Source: Naegleria gruberi
Lineage: Eukaryota
Assembly: GCA_000004985.1 (NCBI GenBank)
Contig: GG738894.1
Length of the DNA: 64,000 nt
Direction: 5' to 3' (one strand)
Program-made: the position numbers and the translations under genes
In this document: positions 3,984 through 64,000 of the stretch, piece by piece
Position numbering within the stretch: position 1 is the stretch's first letter
How the letters are laid out: each line of letters begins with the position of its first letter
Notes under the pieces: generated by a model
The model's input: only the letters and a program-made list of their open reading frames with translations
The model's database searches: none
What the model was told of the DNA's origin: nothing

Positions 3984-5576
3984 TCACTCAAACACATTAG
4001 AAGGGTTAGTTTTCAACTCGTGCCAAAGCTTGTACTCGTCAGTGTAAATGAATCTGGAGAACGAATCAACTAGGTTCGTATATAAATCTCTCTTAATTTC
4101 ATGTAATAAATGCTTGCTGGTATCAAGATTAATGGTACCACTCTTTCTTTCAGTATCTACCAATTTCTTTGTTTTTCCTCTAATGTTAATTTCTTCTGAG
4201 CAACCATCATCAAGGAATTTATCATAGACCATGTTAATCACCTTGCTTCTTCTTTTTCCTGACATGTCAATAAAATTCTTTTCCATATCCAAAAGCTCTT
4301 GCCAACAATTCAAATTCTCGACTGAAAACTCTGCAACACAAAAGTCTTTGAATAATTGAAATCCCATAGCATCTCGTAAAAGTAGCTCCAACTCGTTTGT
4401 CATTATTGAAGGAGCAGAGGCTGAACGTTCCAAATTCTTTCTATCAGATGGTGTTTTACCATGATCTGAAGAGGGAATTTCCACATGACTATGAGATTGA
4501 GTCTTAATGACTGTTCTAGTCTTTGAAAATGATTTGTTGAGAATGTTGGCAATCTTTTTCTTTTCATCCAATTCAGCAGCAATAGTTGTATCAGTATCTG
4601 TATCAGCTCCTGCTCTTGTTGCTGAAGATGAAGAGTCTGAAGTTGCTGCACTCGTAATTGAATGAACTCTAGGTCTGTGTTGTGGAAGTTGTGTTGATGA
4701 TGAAGGAGAAAGATCCACAATTGGTGTATTCACATTTTGCATTGAAATAAACTCCTCACTATCGGTAACTCTTCTTCCAAATTCCTCTTCCCCTTTCATT
4801 TCTGCCTCATCGATAGTATTTCTTCTGTGAAGCATAAAGAAGGCCTTGAGCACATTCTTCTTCTTTAAGAGAGAAAGCTTGGGCGTTGAAAGTGATCGTC
4901 TGTAGCCTGAATTTTCTTGTAACCTAGCAATTTGTTGTTGAGTGGAAGGAGGAAGGGATTGTCTGGACTTGAGATTGGATGATTCGTTAGTAGTTGAGAT
5001 TGTGGTAGTATTATTTATAGTGGTGGTATGAATGGTAGTGTTGTTGTTGGTAGTGGAGGCTCTAGATTGTGTTGGGTTTGAAATTTGCATGACTGTGTTA
5101 ATGTTGGTTGGAATATCTGAAATATGAATACTAGTACTGAGCGCAGTCCTAGAGTTTCTAACACTCGTCGTTGTGCTGGTCAGTGAGGTCATGTCACTAT
5201 CAACATGGTGCAATGGAAAAACGTTGAAAGATGTATTCATGGATGAGGAGAGGAGTACGGGAGAAGATGGTGTTTGTTGTTGATTGTTATTTGAACAATG
5301 TGATGAAGAGGCAGCTCCAATTCCAACAAGAGCATGCGATGCAGCAAACACTACATCACTTGGAGGTTGTTGCTCTTGATTATTAGGTGTAGAGATGGCA
5401 TTATTCGAAACTTGATGATGAACATTAAAACTGGATACAGTGGTCAGAGGTGATTGATTTCTCGTTGTTGCTGTTATTGTTGGTATTGATGATGAATTCT
5501 TAGAGGAGGATGAAATGTGCCTCTCACTCCTCCTAAATGAGAAGCGTTGTTTAGAATGAGAATTTGTATTGCCCAT
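3984..5576 (-). CDS. N-myristoylated Ser/Thr/Asn-rich regulator of G-protein signaling (RGS-domain) protein
   Basis: Starts MGNTNSHSK, matching the MGxxxS N-myristoylation consensus. A long S/T/N/Q low-complexity region follows. The C-terminal RGS domain reads LLRDAMGFQLFKDFCVAEFSVENLNCWQELLDMEKNF...KVINMVYDKFL. Single 530-aa ORF. Confidence 0.75.
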   Translation of the reverse strand: MGNTNSHSKQRFSFRRSERHISSSSKNSSSIPTITATTRNQSPLTTVSSFNVHHQVSNNAISTPNNQEQQPPSDVVFAASHALVGIGAASSSHCSNNNQQQTPSSPVLLSSSMNTSFNVFPLHHVDSDMTSLTSTTTSVRNSRTALSTSIHISDIPTNINTVMQISNPTQSRASTTNNNTTIHTTTINNTTTISTTNESSNLKSRQSLPPSTQQQIARLQENSGYRRSLSTPKLSLLKKKNVLKAFFMLHRRNTIDEAEMKGEEEFGRRVTDSEEFISMQNVNTPIVDLSPSSSTQLPQHRPRVHSITSAATSDSSSSATRAGADTDTDTTIAAELDEKKKIANILNKSFSKTRTVIKTQSHSHVEIPSSDHGKTPSDRKNLERSASAPSIMTNELELLLRDAMGFQLFKDFCVAEFSVENLNCWQELLDMEKNFIDMSGKRRSKVINMVYDKFLDDGCSEEINIRGKTKKLVDTERKSGTINLDTSKHLLHEIKRDLYTNLVDSFSRFIYTDEYKLWHELKTNPSNVFE

Positions 5577-11594: not shown

Positions 11595-12932
11595 ATGACA
11601 AAACGATCCATTGAAGAAAATTGCTCATCTTCAAAGAAGATAAAGATTCAAGATCATGTAAATCACATTTCGGAAGATGTTTGGAGTCAAACCATTTTCC
11701 CATTTCTTGATGGCAATGAATTATTTAAATCAATAAGATTAGTTTCGTTTCTGTGGAATAATCTTGTTTTGGCCACTCGATGTAATATTCAAGTTTATTT
11801 TCCAGGTTTCACAATGGAGGAAGTAGAACGAACTGTTGTCCAATTAAAAGAATGGGAATTTTCTGATAGAGAAACCTATGAGGTAACAAGTTTTAAATAT
11901 TCGAATGATAAAGAGCATTGTAAACGAGTGAGAGAATTTATTCAAAGTGGAGAGGAAGGTAAATTCAAAAATGTTACTGGAATTACTTTCAAGAGTAAAA
12001 TTCATCCATGCTTCTTTGAAAAGATTTTCAGTTTGGATTGGCAACATTTGAAAACTCTCAATTTGAGTAATAATACTCTCAATGCTGAGGGAGCAAAGTT
12101 TTTAGCAAATGGAAATATGAATCTAACACAATTGAATTTGTCAAATAATTCCATTGGTAATGAAGGTATTGGCTATTTATCAAAGAGTTCAATTGTTAAA
12201 GGGCTAACTTTATTGAATGTATTGTGTAATAATATTGATAATGAAGGAGCACAATATTTACAAGGTGATAATTTTAAAAATCTAACCCAATTGAATTTTC
12301 AAACTTTATCATCTAGAGGAAATCGTTATCTTGCCATGACTGCTCACTTTTGTGGAGTTACACCATTCACTATTCATCCTTTTGATAATACTGATGATTT
12401 GAAGGAGTATCTCTTTAACTATTACATTAAGTATTGGAATCAATATGCAGGTGAAGTATTGGGTCTCTCTAAAAATGATGACAAACAGGTACTGAAAGAA
12501 AAGATTTATCCATTACCTTTTGAAAGAATTGCTGGGTTGGCAGTTGGTGAAGTTGGTGGAATGGTTTATAATGAATGTGAAACAGAGGCTGTTGTTGGAA
12601 TAGTTTATGGTCAGGAGATTAATGAAGAGAATTTGGCCAAAACTAACGAATCAACACCATTTGTTATTGTTGAAAAGCTTGATGGTTATTCCCATGAATG
12701 TACTTATTGTATTGGAAAGTCTAAGCTTGAAGAAAGATTGGCAAAAGAAGAATACGAAGAAGATGAACTTGAAGAACTTGAAGGAGATTCCAAAACATTC
12801 AAACAAATAGCAAGTTTGCTTCAATCAGGTATTGATAATGATGATGGAAGAGACATTTTTCTGGCTTTTTTCATTGGTGAAATTGTTGATGGTACATTTG
12901 TAGAGCTAAAGAAAAAACAATTAAATTATTGA
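11595..12932 (+). CDS. F-box-like / RNI-type LRR protein
   Basis: ATG at 11595 (MTKRSIEENCSS). F-box-like segment: EDVWSQTIFPFLDGNELFKSIRLVSFLWNNLVLATR. RNI-like LRRs: LKTLNLSNNTLNAEGAKFLANGNMNLTQLNLSNNSIGNEGIGYLS...LTLLNVLCNNIDNEGAQYLQ. Acidic C-terminus. Confidence 0.6.
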   Translation: MTKRSIEENCSSSKKIKIQDHVNHISEDVWSQTIFPFLDGNELFKSIRLVSFLWNNLVLATRCNIQVYFPGFTMEEVERTVVQLKEWEFSDRETYEVTSFKYSNDKEHCKRVREFIQSGEEGKFKNVTGITFKSKIHPCFFEKIFSLDWQHLKTLNLSNNTLNAEGAKFLANGNMNLTQLNLSNNSIGNEGIGYLSKSSIVKGLTLLNVLCNNIDNEGAQYLQGDNFKNLTQLNFQTLSSRGNRYLAMTAHFCGVTPFTIHPFDNTDDLKEYLFNYYIKYWNQYAGEVLGLSKNDDKQVLKEKIYPLPFERIAGLAVGEVGGMVYNECETEAVVGIVYGQEINEENLAKTNESTPFVIVEKLDGYSHECTYCIGKSKLEERLAKEEYEEDELEELEGDSKTFKQIASLLQSGIDNDDGRDIFLAFFIGEIVDGTFVELKKKQLNY

Positions 12933-52926: not shown

Positions 52927-53115
52927 TTGGTCGGCAATCAATGAGCTAATTTTTTACATGATATTTTAATTTCGCATCCAGAACAATGCAACAAATTTGA
53001 TAGCAAAACTGAAGGAAGTGTTAGGTGCATGTGTAAACGTCGAAATGTTTAGTGAATGGAGAACATAGTACCAATTTCACCCTTGCATCTTTTGAGAAAG
53101 TACCTTAATCTTAGT

Positions 53116-53204
53116 GTTTAATTAGCTCAGTAGGGAGAGCACGGGACTACGGCCCATTAAAAGTTGATATCCCGGGGCCATAGGTTCGATTCCTATATTA
53201 AACG
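53116..53204 (+). tRNA. tRNA, intron-containing; anticodon most likely ACG (Arg)
   Basis: Cloverleaf found by hand. Acceptor GTTTAAT/ATTAAAC (7 bp, all A/T). D-arm GCTC-AGTAGGGA-GAGC with A-box TAGCTCAGTAGG. Anticodon stem CGGGA/TCCCG. Loop CT-ACG-G, then a 16-nt insert (CCCATTAAAAGTTGAT) at the canonical 37/38 position. Variable loop GGGCC. T-arm ATAGG-TTCGATT-CCTAT with B-box GGTTCGATTCC. Discriminator G, then T4 (53206-53209). Confidence 0.65.
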
Positions 53205-53529
53205 TTTTAGAGACAGTATCATTAATGAATACTTTGAGTTTTCTGAAATTTTTAAATCCAATGTGCTTTAATCCAGTTTACCGATTCTACAGAATAATAA
53301 TAATTTCTCGTACTACATGAATGTAATAGAAATATCTGCAATGTTCGAAATATTATGATTCCAATTGAAAAAGTTCAACTCACACAATAGATCTATTTAT
53401 TAAAAGCTATTTGGCTTACTGAAAGTAACCAATCCTCCAAATCTTCTAAGCTTTTTTCAAACAGCTTCAAATTATTCTCGAAGGATTCTTCAAGAATCAA
53501 GAATAAAACAACGCGACGAATAGAAAAAA

Positions 53530-58747: not shown

Positions 58748-60322
58748 ATGGGACAGTTTTCATCCAGTATTGCACCTCCACCAAGCAGAATATGTAGCAC
58801 ACCATCGGTAATTGACATTAAAAAACTTCTCCAAAAACCTCTCCACAAATTAACAAATCTCGAACTAGTTGTTTTGTGTAAACATTACAAATTCGAAAGT
58901 GAGAAAGTAAAACAAGCTCTGGAGAAGAATGCCAAATTTAATGGAGCAGATTATGATAAACTTTGTAAAATGAAAACAAAGGAAGAGATTGAAGTGGAGA
59001 AGGAAAGATTGATCGATGTTGTGAATAAGTATGTAAATGATGAAGGAGAATCCAAGTTCTTTGTTTATCAAGTTGTGATTGCAAAGTTTGAGGATGAGAG
59101 AAAGTTATTCTTCATGAAAGAAGACAAAAGTGTTTCATCAAATAGCGAATCTGAAAGTGAAGTGGATTCCAATAATCCAACCACTACAAGTACTTTCCTA
59201 AAGTTATGTAATAATAGTACTAGGCCATATGTTAACTCTGAATCTTCTGGTGTAGAGAATGAAAATCAAGAATATGATGTTCAAATTCCAATAGAAAGCT
59301 GGAGATTATCACAAGCCGAATTTAAAGGAGTTGAGCTAGCCAAGAAAAAGATTAGAGCATACCTTAAAGAATTCAACACTACACCAGAGAAGCTTGGATA
59401 TAGTGAAAGTTTAGATTTGGAAGCTCAAAGATATGTCTGTGAAGACAGATTCATGCATTTTCACTTTGTTCGTCCTACAATGAAGAAAAATTCAAGAATT
59501 GTTTCCAATATTCCAGCAGTTGTGAGCGTCAAGTTGTTGGTTTCATCTTTAAGAAAACACGAATTAACCAAGAAGGCAATGGCTACATTCGCAGACATTC
59601 TTAATGTAAATAATTATGGAGTTGTTCACACAGGAATCTTAATTGGAGAATGGAAAATTGAATGGTATGATAATTCATTGGTGAGAGTTGAGTGCGATTC
59701 TGACCAGAAACTTGATGCTAATAATACCATTGCAGCCATTGATATTGGAGAAATTGCTGGAGCTGACAATGTCAAGAAGGCATTCGAATTGATTACAAAA
59801 ATTTCATGCAATTACAATGCAACCAAGAATTATTCATTATTAGGGGCTAATTGCCAACATTTCGTTTCAGATTTATTAGAGGCATTGAATTTGACACTTC
59901 CAGTGAGTGAATCTTTCAAAATTTATTTTGACAAATTGAAAAGAGGAGAAACTGACAGAACTTTCTTTGTGAATGAAAATTTGGCAACATTATTTAAAAC
60001 ATGCAACATTACAAACCCTTATATTGGTTTGAAGAACATTACATTCGAGAATAGAAAATCGTTGGATGAATTTTGTCATTTTCTTGAACATATCAAATAT
60101 TTTGACATTGAGGCAGGTCAAAGTGATTTTTGGCTTTTGAAGGCATTTGATAGGTCATTTGTTTTGGTTGGGGAGGATGAAATTTGTCTTACTTTTGATT
60201 CTACAGGAGTCAAAGAGAATGGATTCTTCACAACTAATGGAGGAAGAGATCAAGATTCCATCACTCATATTAAGTACAGTGTTAAAGATGTTGATTTCAG
60301 TGATTGTGTATTAAAGAGGTAA
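58748..60322 (+). CDS. N-myristoylated hypothetical protein (524 aa)
   Basis: MGQFSSS (MGxxxS). Conserved N-terminal module KPLHKLTNLELVVLCKHYKFESEKV is shared with the truncated paralog at 60684. Confidence 0.55.
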   Translation: MGQFSSSIAPPPSRICSTPSVIDIKKLLQKPLHKLTNLELVVLCKHYKFESEKVKQALEKNAKFNGADYDKLCKMKTKEEIEVEKERLIDVVNKYVNDEGESKFFVYQVVIAKFEDERKLFFMKEDKSVSSNSESESEVDSNNPTTTSTFLKLCNNSTRPYVNSESSGVENENQEYDVQIPIESWRLSQAEFKGVELAKKKIRAYLKEFNTTPEKLGYSESLDLEAQRYVCEDRFMHFHFVRPTMKKNSRIVSNIPAVVSVKLLVSSLRKHELTKKAMATFADILNVNNYGVVHTGILIGEWKIEWYDNSLVRVECDSDQKLDANNTIAAIDIGEIAGADNVKKAFELITKISCNYNATKNYSLLGANCQHFVSDLLEALNLTLPVSESFKIYFDKLKRGETDRTFFVNENLATLFKTCNITNPYIGLKNITFENRKSLDEFCHFLEHIKYFDIEAGQSDFWLLKAFDRSFVLVGEDEICLTFDSTGVKENGFFTTNGGRDQDSITHIKYSVKDVDFSDCVLKR

Positions 60323-60454
60323 TAAATGATTGTTAGTGCCACTCTTTCAACAATTGCTCAATTACTTTGGTGATAAAAGAATAATTGAGCAATTGTTGTT
60401 AAGAATTTGTTATAGATAATAATATTTATAATTCAGATATTAAGGTGAATGAAT

Positions 60455-60571
60455 GGCTACGGCCATATCACGATGAATGCACCTCATCCCAACGATTTGA
60501 GAAGTTAAGCATCGTCGAGCCACATCAGTACTGAGGTTGGAGACAACTTGGGAACCTGTGGTGCTGTAGTC
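60455..60571 (+). rRNA. 5S ribosomal RNA gene
   Basis: GGCTACGGCCATATCACGATGAATGCACCTCATCCCAACGATTTGAGAAGTTAAGCATCGTCGAGCCACATCAGTACTGAGGTTGGAGACAACTTGGGAACCTGTGGTGCTGTAGTC aligns along its whole length to eukaryotic 5S: GyCTACGGCCATAyCAC...GAAGyTAAGC...AGTACT.GG.TGGGAGAC...TGGGAA...GGTGCTGTAG. Helix I ends are complementary. Followed by TTTTT (60572-60576). Confidence 0.85.
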
Positions 60572-60576
60572 TTTTT
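60572..60576 (+). terminator. Pol III T-run terminator of 5S gene
   Basis: TTTTT immediately after the 5S 3' end. Confidence 0.6.
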
Positions 60577-60683
60577 ATTCCATTTTCCTTGACCGTGGTT
60601 TCATTAGAATGCTCAAAAGGTCCGATCACGTTTAACGTGAAAAAGACAGCAGATGATCAAAATACATGATACAATCTAAAAAA

Positions 60684-60895
60684 ATGGGCAACACGTCAAG
60701 TATTATTAGATTCTCTGAAGAAATCAGTCCACCCAGTGATGAGATTGAAGAGGCAGAGGCAAAACCTCTTCGAGAATGTAGCAATAGGGACTTGTTTTGT
60801 TTATGTATTCATTACAATTTCAAGAACGATACTGTCATAAATGCTGTAACAATGAACAATGATTTTTATGGAAAGTTATTCGAAAGGTTGGTANN
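60684..60895 (+). CDS. 5' end of a paralog of the 58748 gene (N-myristoylated), truncated at the assembly gap/retroelement
   Basis: MGNTSSIIRFSEE...KPLRECSNRDLFCLCIHYNFKNDTVINAVTMNNDFYGKL aligns ungapped to KPLHKLTNLELVVLCKHYKFESEKVKQALEKNAKFNGADYDKL of the upstream gene (16/43 identical, same spacing of L, C, HY, F). Confidence 0.45.
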
Positions 60896-61503
60896 NNNNN
60901 NNNNNNNNNNNNNNNNNNNNNNNNNNNNNNNNNNNNNNNNNNNNNNNNNNNNNNNNNNNNNNNNNNNNNNNNNNNNNNNNNNNNNNNNNNNNNNNNNNNN
61001 NNNNNNNNNNNNNNNNNNNNNNNNNNNNNNNNNNNNNNNNNNNNNNNNNNNNNNNNNNNNNNNNNNNNNNNNNNNNNNNNNNNNNNNNNNNNNNNNNNNN
61101 NNNNNNNNNNNNNNNNNNNNNNNNNNNNNNNNNNNNNNNNNNNNNNNNNNNNNNNNNNNNNNNNNNNNNNNNNNNNNNNNNNNNNNNNNNNNNNNNNNNN
61201 NNNNNNNNNNNNNNNNNNNNNNNNNNNNNNNNNNNNNNNNNNNNNNNNNNNNNNNNNNNNNNNNNNNNNNNNNNNNNNNNNNNNNNNNNNNNNNNNNNNN
61301 NNNNNNNNNNNNNNNNNNNNNNNNNNNNNNNNNNNNNNNNNNNNNNNNNNNNNNNNNNNNNNNNNNNNNNNNNNNNNNNNNNNNNNNNNNNNNNNNNNNN
61401 NNNNNNNNNNNNNNNNNNNNNNNNNNNNNNNNNNNNNNNNNNNNNNNNNNNNNNNNNNNNNNNNNNNNNNNNNNNNNNNNNNNNNNNNNNNNNNNNNNNN
61501 NNN
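60896..61503. other. Assembly gap (608 N)
   Basis: Run of N. Confidence 0.99.
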
Positions 61504-63611
61504 TTACGAAAAGTAAATGGAGGAATAGATTCGAAACATTCAAAAATGGAAACTTTGCAAAAAGTTTCAAAGTTCATTCGGCAAGATTTTTGGGCAACCA
61601 AAATAGATTTAAAGAAAGGTTATTTTCAAATTCCAATCAAAGAAGAAGATCAGAAGCTATTAGGCTTCTCATTTCAAGGAAAGAAATACAAGTTCCAATG
61701 TCTTCCATTTGGCTTAAACTCGGCACCAAGGTACTTCACAAAAATCATGAAAGAATTAATGAAGAAATGGAGAGAGAAAGGGCTGATCGTATTCATATAC
61801 ATCGACGACATTTTAATTTTGGGATCCAATATAGTAGAAACAAAGACAGCAACAGAACAAGTGTTAAAAGATTTAGAATTCTTGGGTTGGCTGGTTCAGT
61901 TAGAAAAATCCCAACTAATCCCCTCACAACAAGTATGCTTTTTAGGGATAGATTTCAATTTGGAAAAAGGAACAATGCTGATTCCTCACGAAAAGAAAGA
62001 AGTTGCACTCAACTTTATTCAAGATTTTCTCCAAGCTGGAAAATTTCGAAAATTCGTTCGAATCAAACTGGTAGCTCAATTTATAGGAAAACTGGAATTC
62101 GCCTCATTAGCAGAACAATACATAATGCCTCTGTTAGACAGATTACGAAAGCAAATGAATCAAAGGGTTTCAGTAGTAGGATGGTCAGGTTTTATGCTCA
62201 TCAACAGAGGCCCCATGAAGGACCTAATGAGATTAAAGTCCATCATTTCAAACTCAAAAGGTTCTCTCCTAGATCTAAATCAACCTTTCCCAATTATAGT
62301 CAATTCAGATGCTTCTCCTCAAGGATATGGCGTCCACTCCTCAAACACTGTTATCATAGGAAGATTTCACACCAACGATCATATCAATTCGAAAGAAATG
62401 ATGGCAATTCTTCAATTCTTCATAGAAGCAAAATCACAAAAGCTCTTCCCAAGAGGAGCCTATTTCGAGATAAGGGGGGACAATTCAACTGCCCTCTCAT
62501 ACATAAGAAAAGGATATGGAACTTTCGAACACCTCGCTCAAATAGCAAGAAAAATTTGGAAAATTCTAATAGAATGTGGCTGGAGAATTGCAAAAGTAAT
62601 TTACATTCCCTCAGAGAAAAATTCAATCGCAGACAAATTAAGCCGTTTAAGCGATTGGAAATCATCACCAGAATTGATAAGTATGGTAGAAAAAGAATTC
62701 GGAAACCACACCATAGACAGATTTGCAACATCAGAGTCAGCAACAACGATCCAATTCAACTCTTGGTTAGAAAACGATGCGTTTCAAGAACTTTGGGAAC
62801 AAAATTCAATCAATTATTGTGTTCCTCCAATAGGTCTAATCCCACAAGCTCTATTTCACTTGATCCGATCAAAGGCCATAGGAACATTCGTAGTTCCTTA
62901 TTGGCCAACAGCTTACTGGTTCCCGATCTTGCTAAAGATATCTTTAGAACAGAGAAGTGTTCCGCTCCAATGGCTTATAACAGAGCATTACAACGAACTG
63001 CACAAACTATCAGACAATCTTTCGTTCATGGCAGTCAAAGTGAATGGAATGCTCTACTTTCAATGAGATGTCAGGCTTTGTCTACTGCTCTTGCAGAATC
63101 CACGGTCAAAAAGTATTCCTCAACTTATTCAGAATTTTCTTATTTCTGTCTACTCCATAATTTAGACAAATCAGATTTTAGAGCCCCGGAATTATTCGCT
63201 TGCTATCTTGCAGTTCACAAAAAGCTCTACAGATTGAATAATTTGAAACCTACGTTGGATTTCTATTCAAATTTGGAAGGATGGTCCGTAAATTATTCTA
63301 ATCAATTCTCTAGAATCAAACAAGGTTTGAATAAGTTTTATTCACGAGCCGATATTGTTAAACGTAAGAGAAGTGGAATCTCTGCTCTCAATGTCAAGCA
63401 ATTCATTGATAGGATCTCTATTAAAGACTCTTATCTTCACATGTTGTCTTGTGCCATACTTTCCGTTGGCATTAGATTATTGGCAAGACCTGGTCAACTG
63501 GCTAATTTATCATGGTCTTGTGTTAAACTTGATACTCCTTTTATCGGTTGGGTTACTTTTGATCTTTCTGGTCACAAAACAGACCAATATCTGACAGATG
63601 AAGATGGCTAG
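61504..63611 (+). mobile_element. DIRS-like (tyrosine-recombinase) retrotransposon, 5' end in gap, 3'-truncated: RT-RNaseH-(MT-like) ORF 61504..63066 plus overlapping ORF ending in the YR N-terminal region (about 63058..63611)
   Basis: RT motifs: LPFGLNSAPRYFTKIM; KGLIVFIYIDDILILG (YXDD). RNase H: IVNSDASPQGYGV ... SIADKLSR. Downstream DIRS-type domain: NYCVPPIGLIPQ...VVPYWPTAYWF. A second frame stays open across the whole RT region and ends with a YR-like box I (CAILSVGIRLLARPGQLANLSWSCV) before stopping at 63611. Long overlapping ORFs are the DIRS1-type arrangement. No integrase or protease motifs. Confidence 0.7.
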
Positions 63612-63705
63612 TTGCGAGGAACGATGCAACGTTAGTATTTCGACAAATTGTAAACAATAAAATTGAGTTGATAAATAATTTTTATGCTCAAAAAAATTAA
63701 GAAAC

Positions 63706-64000
63706 ATGGTAAACACACCAAGCAAAATCATTGCTGACACCCCTGGCAAAACAGTGACTGCTATTAGAAAAATTATTTCTGCTAGTAAGTCAGCTGACAG
63801 CGTTTCAACTTACAAGTCTGGATATATCCCAGCAATTGATGAAGGTAGTTCAGTGTCATCACAGACTAAACCTTTAGATAATAATCAAAGTGGTTCTGGA
63901 AATGACCCAGTTTCATCACAAACTAAACCCTTGGATAACAACCAAGGTGGTTCTGAAAAGAACCTAGATGCTATTCTTCACGCCATCACTTCATTGGGTG
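63706..64000 (+). CDS. Hypothetical repeat-containing protein, partial (runs off window end)
   Basis: ATG at 63706 (MVNTPSKIIADTPGK...) with duplicated SSQTKPLDNNQ(S/G)GS units. Open to the window end. Confidence 0.4.
   Translation, partial: MVNTPSKIIADTPGKTVTAIRKIISASKSADSVSTYKSGYIPAIDEGSSVSSQTKPLDNNQSGSGNDPVSSQTKPLDNNQGGSEKNLDAILHAITSLG

What the first reader, a model, noticed from the sequence alone, without database searches (positions are those of the whole stretch)
60455..63650. DIRS-like YR retroelement with overlapping ORFs sitting immediately downstream of a 5S rRNA gene and abutting a truncated host-gene paralog
The sequence after the 608-N gap encodes RT (YIDD), RNase H and a DIRS-type downstream domain. 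A second frame stays open for more than 2 kb over the same DNA and ends in a tyrosine-recombinase-like box I region. The element then stops abruptly at about 63611, followed by an unrelated gene start at 63706. Upstream, within 100 bp of the 5S gene, lies the 5' end of a paralog of the neighbouring myristoylated-protein gene. Many retroelements target Pol III genes. This configuration is compatible with 5S-proximal insertion that disrupted a duplicated gene. The alternative is that the gap conceals an assembly join.
Basis: partly seen in the sequence, partly recalled or inferred. Interest (0 to 1): 0.6.

Follow-up and report, generated by a model that had tools for sequence, protein, structure and literature searches.

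The report
Two juxtaposed DIRS-like retrotransposon fragments
This is a broken copy of an already catalogued kind of jumping gene (a tyrosine-recombinase retrotransposon) in the amoeba Naegleria gruberi, cut off where a second element of the same kind begins; nothing found here supports a link to the nearby 5S rRNA gene, so the locus is ordinary.

Summary
The window is Naegleria gruberi. There is a true 5S rRNA gene at 60455-60572, a 610-N gap, and then a pol frame with RT (YIDD), RNase H and the inactive Dam-like 'MT' domain. A second frame has no stop in 520 codons, against 24.5±3.4 expected from synonymous shuffles and 42-101 in host genes. It ends in the N-terminal half of a tyrosine recombinase. 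This openness recurs in five related families. It is the 'long pol/YR ORF overlap' already described for DIRS1-like elements, which were catalogued in N. gruberi in 2011 (PMC3266345).

The 'unrelated gene' at 63706 is the gag-like ORF1, with its 5' leader, of a second DIRS-like element. That element's left end lies at about 63605-63611, directly against the recombinase of element 1, which is cut at residue ~180 of ~302. This matches the DIRS-into-DIRS insertion known from Dictyostelium.

The 5S link is unsupported. The element boundary lies 322-931 nt from the 5S gene, with a gene fragment in between. The one related copy with genomic flanks has no Pol III gene within 10 kb. I could not close the gap. 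Verdict: known kind, low interest.

The parts
60455..60572 (+). 5S rRNA gene (a host Pol III gene), followed by a T5 terminator run
   Evidence: Rfam RF00001, 96.4 bits, model positions 1-120; T run seen
60684..60893 (+). N-terminal 70 codons of a divergent paralog of the neighbouring gene NAEGRDRAFT_72064 (58748-60322). It starts MGNTSS (an upstream ATG lies at 60666) and runs into the gap
   Evidence: BLASTP 31% identity, E 3e-10; tblastn E 5e-6; no other homologue found by word search
60894..61503 (.). Scaffold gap of 610 N. It hides the end of the paralog fragment and the left part or left boundary of element 1
   Evidence: L001 shows that a full copy has 1353 nt (ORF1 plus the pol N-terminus) upstream of the post-gap point
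61504..63066 (+). Element 1 pol frame, residues 107-626 of 626. It holds RT (YIDD 61798-61809), RNase H (about 62302-62646) and the Dam-like inactive MT domain (about 62653-62910). Stop TGA at 63064-63066
   Evidence: RVT_1 E 1.3e-23 and Dam E 3e-4; 99.4% aa identity to L001 pol; PDB CaMV and Ty3 RT; motifs
61506..63062 (+). Element 1 ORF2 frame where it overlaps pol (+2 relative to pol). It is stop-free, basic and Ser/Arg-rich, with no Pfam match
   Evidence: 0 stops versus 24.5±3.4 expected; open in L001, L002, L003, L005 and largely in L004; composition; no extra synonymous-site conservation
63063..63602 (+). Element 1 tyrosine recombinase, N-terminal ~180 of ~302 residues. It keeps catalytic Arg (63486-63488) and Lys (63576-63578); HxxR, Trp and the Tyr nucleophile are missing
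   Evidence: tblastn with the YRs of L002, L003 and L004 ends at 63602; alignment A1; YR profile matches XerA and Cre
63603..63611 (+). Junction between element 1 and element 2. The TAG that closes the truncated YR frame (63609-63611) is the first part of the stretch shared with the second element's leader
63609..63705 (+). 5' leader of element 2 (TAGTTGCGAGGAACG...ATGCTCAAAAAAATT)
   Evidence: About 90% identical to the leader in metagenome contig L009, with identity collapsing upstream of 63605-63609. Similar to the L004 and L003 leaders (score 32 versus 17.8±2.7 in shuffles, 0 of 500)
63706..64000 (+). Start of element 2 ORF1 (gag-like), which runs off the window. It contains a 57-nt tandem duplication at 63851-63964
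   Evidence: 55% identity to the N-terminus of N. gruberi P0124, E 2e-22. P0124 matches L003 ORF1 at E 2e-29 and L001 ORF1 at E 1e-9. Gene model P0128 joins this ORF1 to a full YR

Best explanation
Positions 61504-64000 hold parts of two different DIRS-order (DIRS1/PAT-like) tyrosine-recombinase retrotransposons of Naegleria gruberi, in the same orientation.

Element 1 (61504 to about 63602) is a recent but dead copy.
- Its pol frame (RT, RNase H, inactive Dam-like domain) is intact from residue 107 onward.
- That frame is overlapped throughout by the long ORF2 frame typical of DIRS1-like elements.
- The recombinase is cut after residue ~180, so it lacks the HxxR box, the Trp and the Tyr nucleophile.

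Element 2 starts at about 63605-63611 with its 5' leader and gag-like ORF1 (ATG 63706).

The simplest history (inferred) is that element 2 integrated by recombinase-mediated recombination into the recombinase gene of element 1. Dictyostelium DIRS-1 often does this to other DIRS-1 copies. The rest of element 1 should then lie about 4-4.5 kb downstream, beyond the window.

The open second frame is kept by selection against stop codons, not by conservation of its peptide sequence.

No evidence links the 5S gene to the elements. With only one informative genomic comparison and no genome-wide survey, coincidence is the working reading rather than a demonstrated one. Whether the paralog fragment was disrupted by element 1 cannot be seen, because the boundary is inside the gap.
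For: - Organism: exact match of the neighbouring protein to N. gruberi XP_002672923.1.
- Element 1 domains.
- Near-identical copy with fuller structure: contig L001 is 99.66% identical over 2067 nt and carries ORF1, pol and the YR start.
- YR truncation.
- Second frame: 0 stops versus 24.5±3.4 expected; host genes have 42-101 stops; the same openness is seen in four to five families with 45-64% pol identity.
- Literature: long pol/YR overlap with the catalytic YR in the non-overlapping 3' end, and N. gruberi listed with 7 copies in 6 families (PMC3266345).
- Element 2 ORF1: window ORF versus P0124, E 2e-22; P0124 versus L003 ORF1, E 2e-29. N. gruberi model NAEGRDRAFT_60086 joins this ORF1 family to a full recombinase on a 5.7-kb scaffold.
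- Element 2 leader: shared with L009 from exactly 63609 onward, with an unrelated upstream flank in L009.
- DIRS-1 inserting into pre-existing DIRS-1: PMC7192593.
- No Pol III genes in eight related loci.
Against: - The sequence downstream of 64000 is not available, so the nested-insertion prediction (element 1's YR resuming after element 2) is untested. A deletion followed by an adjacent insertion, or recombination between elements, would give the same junction.
- The junction could be an assembly chimera between repeat copies. No independent contig spanning it was found.
- L001 comes from a metagenome run, so assigning it to N. gruberi is an inference.
- The 5S question rests on one informative genomic comparison (N. 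fowleri). N. gruberi's other copies could not be examined.
Confidence: 0.8

Rival explanations
1. One reading: the element targets Pol III genes and inserted next to the 5S gene, disrupting a duplicated host gene.
For: A real 5S gene lies 0.3-0.9 kb upstream. A gene fragment is interrupted between the two. Pol III targeting is known for other retroelement classes (Ty3, TRE5/TRE3, DGLT-A; established knowledge).
Against: The distance is large and not fixed, and a promoter plus 70 codons intervene. The boundary is unseen (gap). No 5S or tRNA gene lies within 10 kb of the N. fowleri relative or on seven related contigs. As far as I know, DIRS elements integrate by recombinase at short sequence identities and no link to Pol III factors has been reported; the integration model is quoted. 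At this gene density one adjacency is expected by chance.
Confidence: 0.05
2. Assembly artefact at the gap: the 5S/paralog contig and the element contig are joined wrongly or with a wrong gap size, so the paralog and element 1 are not truly adjacent.
For: Both contig ends lie in repeated sequence: a gene-family member and a transposon. A full copy needs at least 1353 nt upstream of the post-gap base, and the paralog would need about 1.3 kb more, but the gap is sized at 610. No public contig bridging the gap was found.
Against: Scaffold joins in this assembly presumably rest on paired clones (not checked here). A 5'-truncated element and a truncated pseudogene would fit in 610 nt.
Confidence: 0.2
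3. The 63603-63611 junction arose from a 3' deletion of element 1 with element 2 inserted independently next to it, or from recombination between two elements. It is not an insertion of element 2 into element 1.
For: Only one side of element 2 is visible. No target-site duplication is expected for this class, so the junction itself cannot discriminate.
Against: The break coincides to within a few bases with the independently defined left terminus of element 2, as simple insertion predicts. DIRS-into-DIRS insertion has precedent.
Confidence: 0.25
4. The long open second frame is a compositional accident and not a selected feature.
For: Its peptide has no Pfam match. Synonymous sites of pol are no more conserved in the overlap than in non-overlapping ORFs.
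Against: 0 stops versus 24.5±3.4 under synonymous shuffling. The other alternative frame has 60 stops. Host genes have 42-101 stops. The openness recurs in families only 45-64% identical in pol.
Confidence: 0.02

Closest known systems
DIRS1-like retrotransposons (Dictyostelium DIRS-1; the N. gruberi families counted by Piednoel et al. 2011, PMC3266345)
   Same: Gag-like ORF1. Pol made of RT, RNase H and an inactive Dam-like MT domain. [quoted passage not shown] YIDD motif. A tendency to sit inside other copies. Already reported in this species.
   Different: Inverted terminal repeats and the internal complementary region cannot be checked on this copy. In the relatives the 5' leader recurs as a direct repeat after the YR (L004) or the contig closes into a circle (L005), which looks more like split direct repeats. 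Only the N. fowleri copy shows a weak 28-nt inverted repeat at its ends.
PAT-like elements (sister group of DIRS1-like, with split direct repeats)
   Same: MT domain present. The order is gag, pol, YR. There is direct repetition of the 5' region downstream of the YR in related contigs.
   Different: No phylogeny was made here. The direct repeat is seen in one metagenomic contig and could reflect tandem copies.
Pol III-gene-targeting retroelements (yeast Ty3/Ty1; Dictyostelium TRE5, TRE3, DGLT-A, Skipper-2)
   Same: A retroelement lies within about 1 kb of a Pol III gene.
   Different: Those elements use integrase or endonuclease tethered to Pol III factors and land at tight, reproducible distances (established knowledge). 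Here the enzyme is a tyrosine recombinase, the distance is 0.3-0.9 kb with a gene fragment between, and no recurrence was seen.

Membership tests
DIRS order (tyrosine-recombinase retrotransposons) | Ty3/Gypsy-type reverse transcriptase with a YxDD motif | tested here: met
   RVT_1 E 1.3e-23; Ty3 RT 4ol8 E 1.2e-17; YIDD at 61798-61809
DIRS order (tyrosine-recombinase retrotransposons) | RNase H domain after the RT | tested here: met
   Motifs NSDAS, E of SKEMMA, RGDNST and IADKLSR. The match to CaMV RT/RNase H runs to pol residue 451. PF17917 is recorded on several relatives
DIRS order (tyrosine-recombinase retrotransposons) | Tyrosine recombinase in place of a DDE integrase | tested here: met
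   The window keeps the N-terminal half with Arg and Lys. Full homologues in L002-L005 carry HxxR, Trp and Tyr. Pfam Phage_integrase is recorded in L003 and L005. The profile matches XerA at 3e-5 and Cre at 1e-3
DIRS order (tyrosine-recombinase retrotransposons) | Gag-like ORF1 upstream of pol | tested here: inconclusive
   Hidden by the gap in the window copy. Present in the 99.66% identical contig L001
DIRS1-like superfamily | Dam-like (MT) domain after RNase H | tested here: met
   PF05869 E 3e-4, 20.8 bits, below Pfam's cutoff of 28.1. The same family is recorded on many relatives
DIRS1-like superfamily | Long overlap of the YR ORF with pol, with the catalytic domain in the non-overlapping 3' end | tested here: met
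   definition from PMC3266345
DIRS1-like superfamily | Inverted terminal repeats plus an internal complementary region | tested here: inconclusive
   Both ends of element 1 are missing. In relatives: L004 has a 246-nt direct repeat, L005 is a circular contig, there is a short inverted repeat just after the YR stop, and L008 has a 28-nt, 75% inverted repeat at its ends
PAT-like superfamily | Split direct repeats (A1 ... B1 A2 B2) | tested here: inconclusive
   In L004, A1 (61-306) equals A2 (4079-4324) at 97% identity, with the first 60 nt unrelated to the pre-A2 sequence. B2 is not visible
Ngaro / VIPER | No MT domain and usually no ORF overlap | tested here: not met
   Both the MT-like domain and the long overlap are present
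Pol III-targeting retroelements | Insertion at a short, fixed distance from a tRNA or 5S gene | tested here: not met
   The boundary lies 322-931 nt from the 5S end, with a gene fragment in between
Pol III-targeting retroelements | The association recurs in most copies | not testable with these tools
The single relative with flanks (N. fowleri) has none within 10 kb

The most novel reading that the evidence does not exclude
In this group of Naegleria-type DIRS elements, gag (ORF1) and the recombinase ORF share one reading frame. They are separated by a single stop codon, which is UGA followed by C in all five families examined. The frame then stays stop-free for about 1.9 kb across pol, without conservation of its peptide. 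This would fit programmed stop-codon readthrough that makes a Gag-linker-recombinase fusion, with pol read from the +1 frame. The 'long ORF overlap' of DIRS1-like elements would then be a translational device rather than a second protein domain. The window shows only the open frame; the UGA-C site of this copy is hidden in the gap.
Probability: 0.25. Interest if true: 0.4.

Novelty: already known. Interest (0 to 1): 0.18.

Why it matters
It matters little for biology at large. DIRS1-like elements, their long pol/recombinase overlap, their habit of inserting into each other and their presence in N. gruberi are all published.

The practical value is in annotation:
- The ORF at 63706 and several N. 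gruberi 'predicted proteins' (NAEGRDRAFT_54067, _70190, _60086) are transposon ORF1s.
- One gene model splices gag onto the recombinase.

The conserved UGA-C stop, in frame with a 1.9-kb stop-free overlap, is a small testable lead on how these elements express their recombinase.

Tried and rejected
- Gap and junction closure by exact-protein look-ups all returned nothing. I tried the neighbouring gene, its near-identical partial copy, the truncated YR, P0123 and P0124. The query wrongly lacked the initiator Met, and I repeated it correctly.
- A word-based homologue search with the 70-residue paralog fragment found no candidate.
- The near-identical partial protein EFC35395.1 covers only the N-terminal 362 residues of the neighbouring gene, so its 2.2-kb scaffold is unlikely to reach the gap.
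- The first attempts to link the 63706 ORF to ORF1 through the short model P0123 were not significant (BLASTP E 0.17-1.2; hhalign E 0.15-0.49). The full-length P0124 from the exhaustive search settled it.
- The synonymous-site test for peptide-level constraint on the second frame was negative. Third-position identity at conserved residues is 0.41-0.52 in the overlap, 0.39-0.55 in the YR and 0.36-0.51 in ORF1.
- The end of contig L001 corresponds to window 63570. It does not coincide with the junction and says nothing about it.
- The 981-aa 'ORF' 60666-63611 in the ORF list is an artefact of reading N as X across the gap.
- No other DIRS piece and no second 5S gene occur in the window.
Full report
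**Source and setting.** The gene next to the finding (58748-60322) is an exact match to Naegleria gruberi XP_002672923.1 / NAEGRDRAFT_72064, on a 499,907-bp scaffold. G+C content is about 32% across the window. The window has four N runs. The one in question spans 60894-61503 and is 610 N.

**Checking the observation.**
- Rfam finds a full-length 5S rRNA gene at 60455-60572 on the + strand (96.4 bits). A T5 run follows it.
- An ORF starting MGNTSS at 60684 (an upstream ATG lies at 60666) runs into the gap after 70 codons. It is 31% identical to the N-terminus of the neighbouring gene (E 3e-10 pairwise; tblastn E 5e-6). It is therefore a divergent paralog fragment.
- Its truncation is inferred, not seen. 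No other homologue of the fragment was found.
- After the gap, frame 61504-63066 matches RVT_1 (E 1.3e-23) and, weakly, the Dam family (E 3e-4).
- That frame carries YIDD (61798-61809) and the RNase H motifs NSDAS, RGDNST and IADKLSR.
- It matches the solved CaMV RT/RNase H and Ty3 RT structures by sequence (E 6e-18 and 1e-17).
- The Dam-like domain is the 'MT' domain of DIRS1-type elements, which is thought to be inactive (PMC4738411).

**The second frame.**
- The frame offset by +2 from pol has no stop in the 520 codons visible after the gap.
- Shuffling synonymous codons of the pol frame gives 24.5±3.4 stops (minimum 13 in 2000 shuffles).
- The other alternative frame has 60 stops.
- Nine host genes of the window have 42-101 stops in the equivalent frame.
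- I fetched contigs for relatives found by protein search. In L001, L002, L003 and L005-L007 (pol identity 45-64% between families), the same frame is open from the stop of ORF1 to the end of the recombinase, 2.3-2.8 kb. L004 has three stops. The degenerate N. fowleri copy has 26.
- The openness is therefore selected and conserved.
- The peptide is not. Third-codon-position identity at conserved pol residues is no higher in the overlap (0.41-0.52) than in the non-overlapping recombinase (0.39-0.55) or in ORF1 (0.36-0.51). The overlap peptide is basic and Ser/Arg-rich and has no Pfam match.
- This is the 'long ORF overlap' that Piednoel et al. describe for half of the DIRS1-like elements, with the catalytic recombinase in the non-overlapping 3' end. 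The same paper lists N. gruberi with 7 copies in 6 families (PMC3266345).

**The recombinase is truncated.**
- The recombinase ATG (63063) overlaps the pol stop as ATGA.
- The 182 codons up to the TAG at 63609-63611 align with the first ~180 of ~302 residues of the recombinases of L002-L005 (34-51% identity by tblastn).
- The box I Arg (ARPGQL) and the Lys of GHKTD are present. The HxxR box, the Trp and the Tyr nucleophile are missing.
- A profile of these proteins matches XerA (3e-5) and Cre (1e-3), mainly through the part the window lacks.
- The copy is therefore catalytically dead.
- It is recent. It differs at 7 of 2067 positions from contig L001, assembled from the metagenome run ERR1078381. 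L001 carries ORF1, a 626-residue pol and the start of the recombinase.

**What follows the break.** It is not.
- An exhaustive profile search with its 98 visible residues plus its one word-search hit found N. gruberi P0124 (341 aa).
- The window ORF aligns with P0124 from Met to Met (55% identity, E 2e-22).
- P0124 matches the gag-like ORF1 of L003 (33% identity over 192 residues, E 2e-29) and of L001 (E 1e-9).
- P0124 is NAEGRDRAFT_54067. Its 90% cluster includes NAEGRDRAFT_60086, a gene model on a 5.7-kb scaffold that splices this ORF1 directly onto a complete tyrosine recombinase.
- The 97 nt before the ATG resemble the 5' leaders of L004 and L003, including an exact 15-mer placed 8-9 nt before the ORF1 start. 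The L004 score is 32 against 17.8±2.7 in shuffles, and the best host upstream control scores 25.
- A JGI metagenome contig (L009) has the same leader at about 90% identity from window 63609 (TAGTTGCGAGG…) through the ATG.
- Upstream of 63605-63609 the two sequences are unrelated, and the L009 flank is not DIRS-like.
- Two independent flanks therefore fix the left terminus of a second DIRS-like element at about 63605-63611. This is within a few bases of where element 1's recombinase homology ends (63602).

**Most likely history and mechanism.**
- Shown: two elements of different families abut head to tail, and element 1 is cut inside its recombinase gene exactly at the terminus of element 2.
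- Inferred: element 2 integrated into element 1.
- Elements of this order are thought to integrate a circular DNA through their recombinase at a short identical sequence, without target duplication. Dictyostelium DIRS-1 often lands in pre-existing DIRS-1 copies (PMC7192593).
- The prediction is that the rest of element 1 lies beyond element 2, outside the window.
- Deletion plus an adjacent insertion, recombination between elements, or an assembly chimera would give the same visible junction.

**The 5S hypothesis.**
- The left boundary of element 1 is somewhere in the gap, 322-931 nt from the end of the 5S gene. The promoter and 70 codons of the paralog fragment lie in between.
- None of eight related loci carries a 5S or tRNA gene. 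These include the N. fowleri genomic copy with 10 kb on each side. The seven metagenomic contigs are too short to say much.
- The window has two Pol III genes in 64 kb and the genome is reported to hold 7 copies. My rough estimate from these numbers is that one adjacency at about 1 kb is not surprising.
- The decisive genome-wide survey could not be run.

**The gap.**
- A full copy needs at least 1353 nt upstream of the post-gap base. The paralog would need about 1.3 kb more.
- A 610-nt gap cannot hold both. Either both are truncated, or the gap is undersized, or the join is wrong.
- Nothing available here decides between these.

**Classification and novelty.**
- Membership in the DIRS order is met on RT, RNase H and recombinase.
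- The MT-like domain and the long overlap point to the DIRS1/PAT clade and exclude Ngaro and VIPER.
- Whether the termini are inverted (DIRS1-like) or split direct repeats (PAT-like) is open. L004 repeats its 5' region directly after the recombinase (246 nt, 97%). L005 assembles as a 4097-nt circle. The N. fowleri copy has a weak 28-nt inverted repeat at its ends.
- The kind, its overlap, its nesting habit and its presence in this species are all published. The finding is a correct recognition of a known element, with an unsupported targeting story and one misread neighbour.
- The only mildly new lead concerns expression. In all five related families, ORF1 and the recombinase ORF share a frame and are separated by a single UGA followed by C, at the same pol-frame position. 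This suggests readthrough expression of the recombinase.

Noticed in passing
L001:1062-1064, L002:956-958, L003:1198-1200, L004:1275-1277, L005:1037-1039: In all five related families the ORF1 stop is TGA followed by C. It lies at the same pol-frame position (Asn/Asp-Asp just before IPLGGRL), and ORF1 is in frame with the recombinase ORF. UGA-C is, from my own knowledge, a leaky stop context in eukaryotes, so this may mark programmed readthrough.
   Followed up: partly
N. gruberi proteins P0123, P0124, P0128, P0129 (NAEGRDRAFT_54067, _60086, _70190): Several 'predicted proteins' of the N. gruberi annotation are ORF1s of this DIRS-like family. Model NAEGRDRAFT_60086 (631 aa) splices ORF1 in frame onto the recombinase, skipping pol as if it were an intron. 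This looks like a mis-annotation.
   Followed up: partly
L004:61-306 and 4079-4324; L005:1-30 and 4098-4127: Related contigs repeat the 5' leader and the ORF1 start directly after the recombinase (97% identical, with ATG changed to ATA in the second copy), or close into a 4097-nt circle. This suggests split direct repeats, tandem copies or circular forms rather than inverted terminal repeats.
   Followed up: partly
L002:3719-3759, L003:3960-3990, L004:4025-4050, L005:3848-3880: A nucleotide motif, TCTCGGGAC followed within a few bases by CCCATT(A/T)GT, is conserved at or just after the recombinase stop in families whose proteins are only 34-50% identical. In L003 and L004 an inverted repeat pairing with the leader follows it. 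It may be a cis-acting site such as the circle junction.
   Followed up: no
window 60348-60364 and 60382-60398: A perfect 17-nt inverted repeat with a 17-nt spacer lies 26 nt after the stop of NAEGRDRAFT_72064 and 57 nt before the 5S gene. It may be a 3'-end or terminator hairpin.
   Followed up: no
window 63851-63964: A 57-nt tandem duplication (82% identical) inside element 2's ORF1 repeats the peptide SSQTKPLDNNQ.GS. The N. gruberi homologue P0124 has a single copy.
   Followed up: no
window 58748-60322: A second N. gruberi entry (EFC35395.1, partial, on a 2.2-kb scaffold) is 360/362 identical to the N-terminal part of the neighbouring gene. It may be an allelic haplotype or a recent duplicate. 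The gene has a sub-threshold PPPDE peptidase match.
   Followed up: partly
window 53115-53205: tRNA-Val (anticodon TAC), 91 nt long, so it probably contains an intron. It is the only other Pol III gene in the window.
   Followed up: no
L008:8440-8467 and 12642-12669: The N. fowleri relative is bracketed by a 28-nt, 75% complementary inverted repeat 4.2 kb apart, just outside ORF1 and the recombinase frame. Its second frame has 26 stops, so it is a decayed copy.
   Followed up: no
L001 and L004 (both from run ERR1078381, project PRJEB11402): An environmental metagenome run yields a contig 99.66% identical to the N. gruberi NEG-M element and a second contig from a different DIRS-like family. N. 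gruberi or a very close relative was therefore probably in that sample.
   Followed up: no
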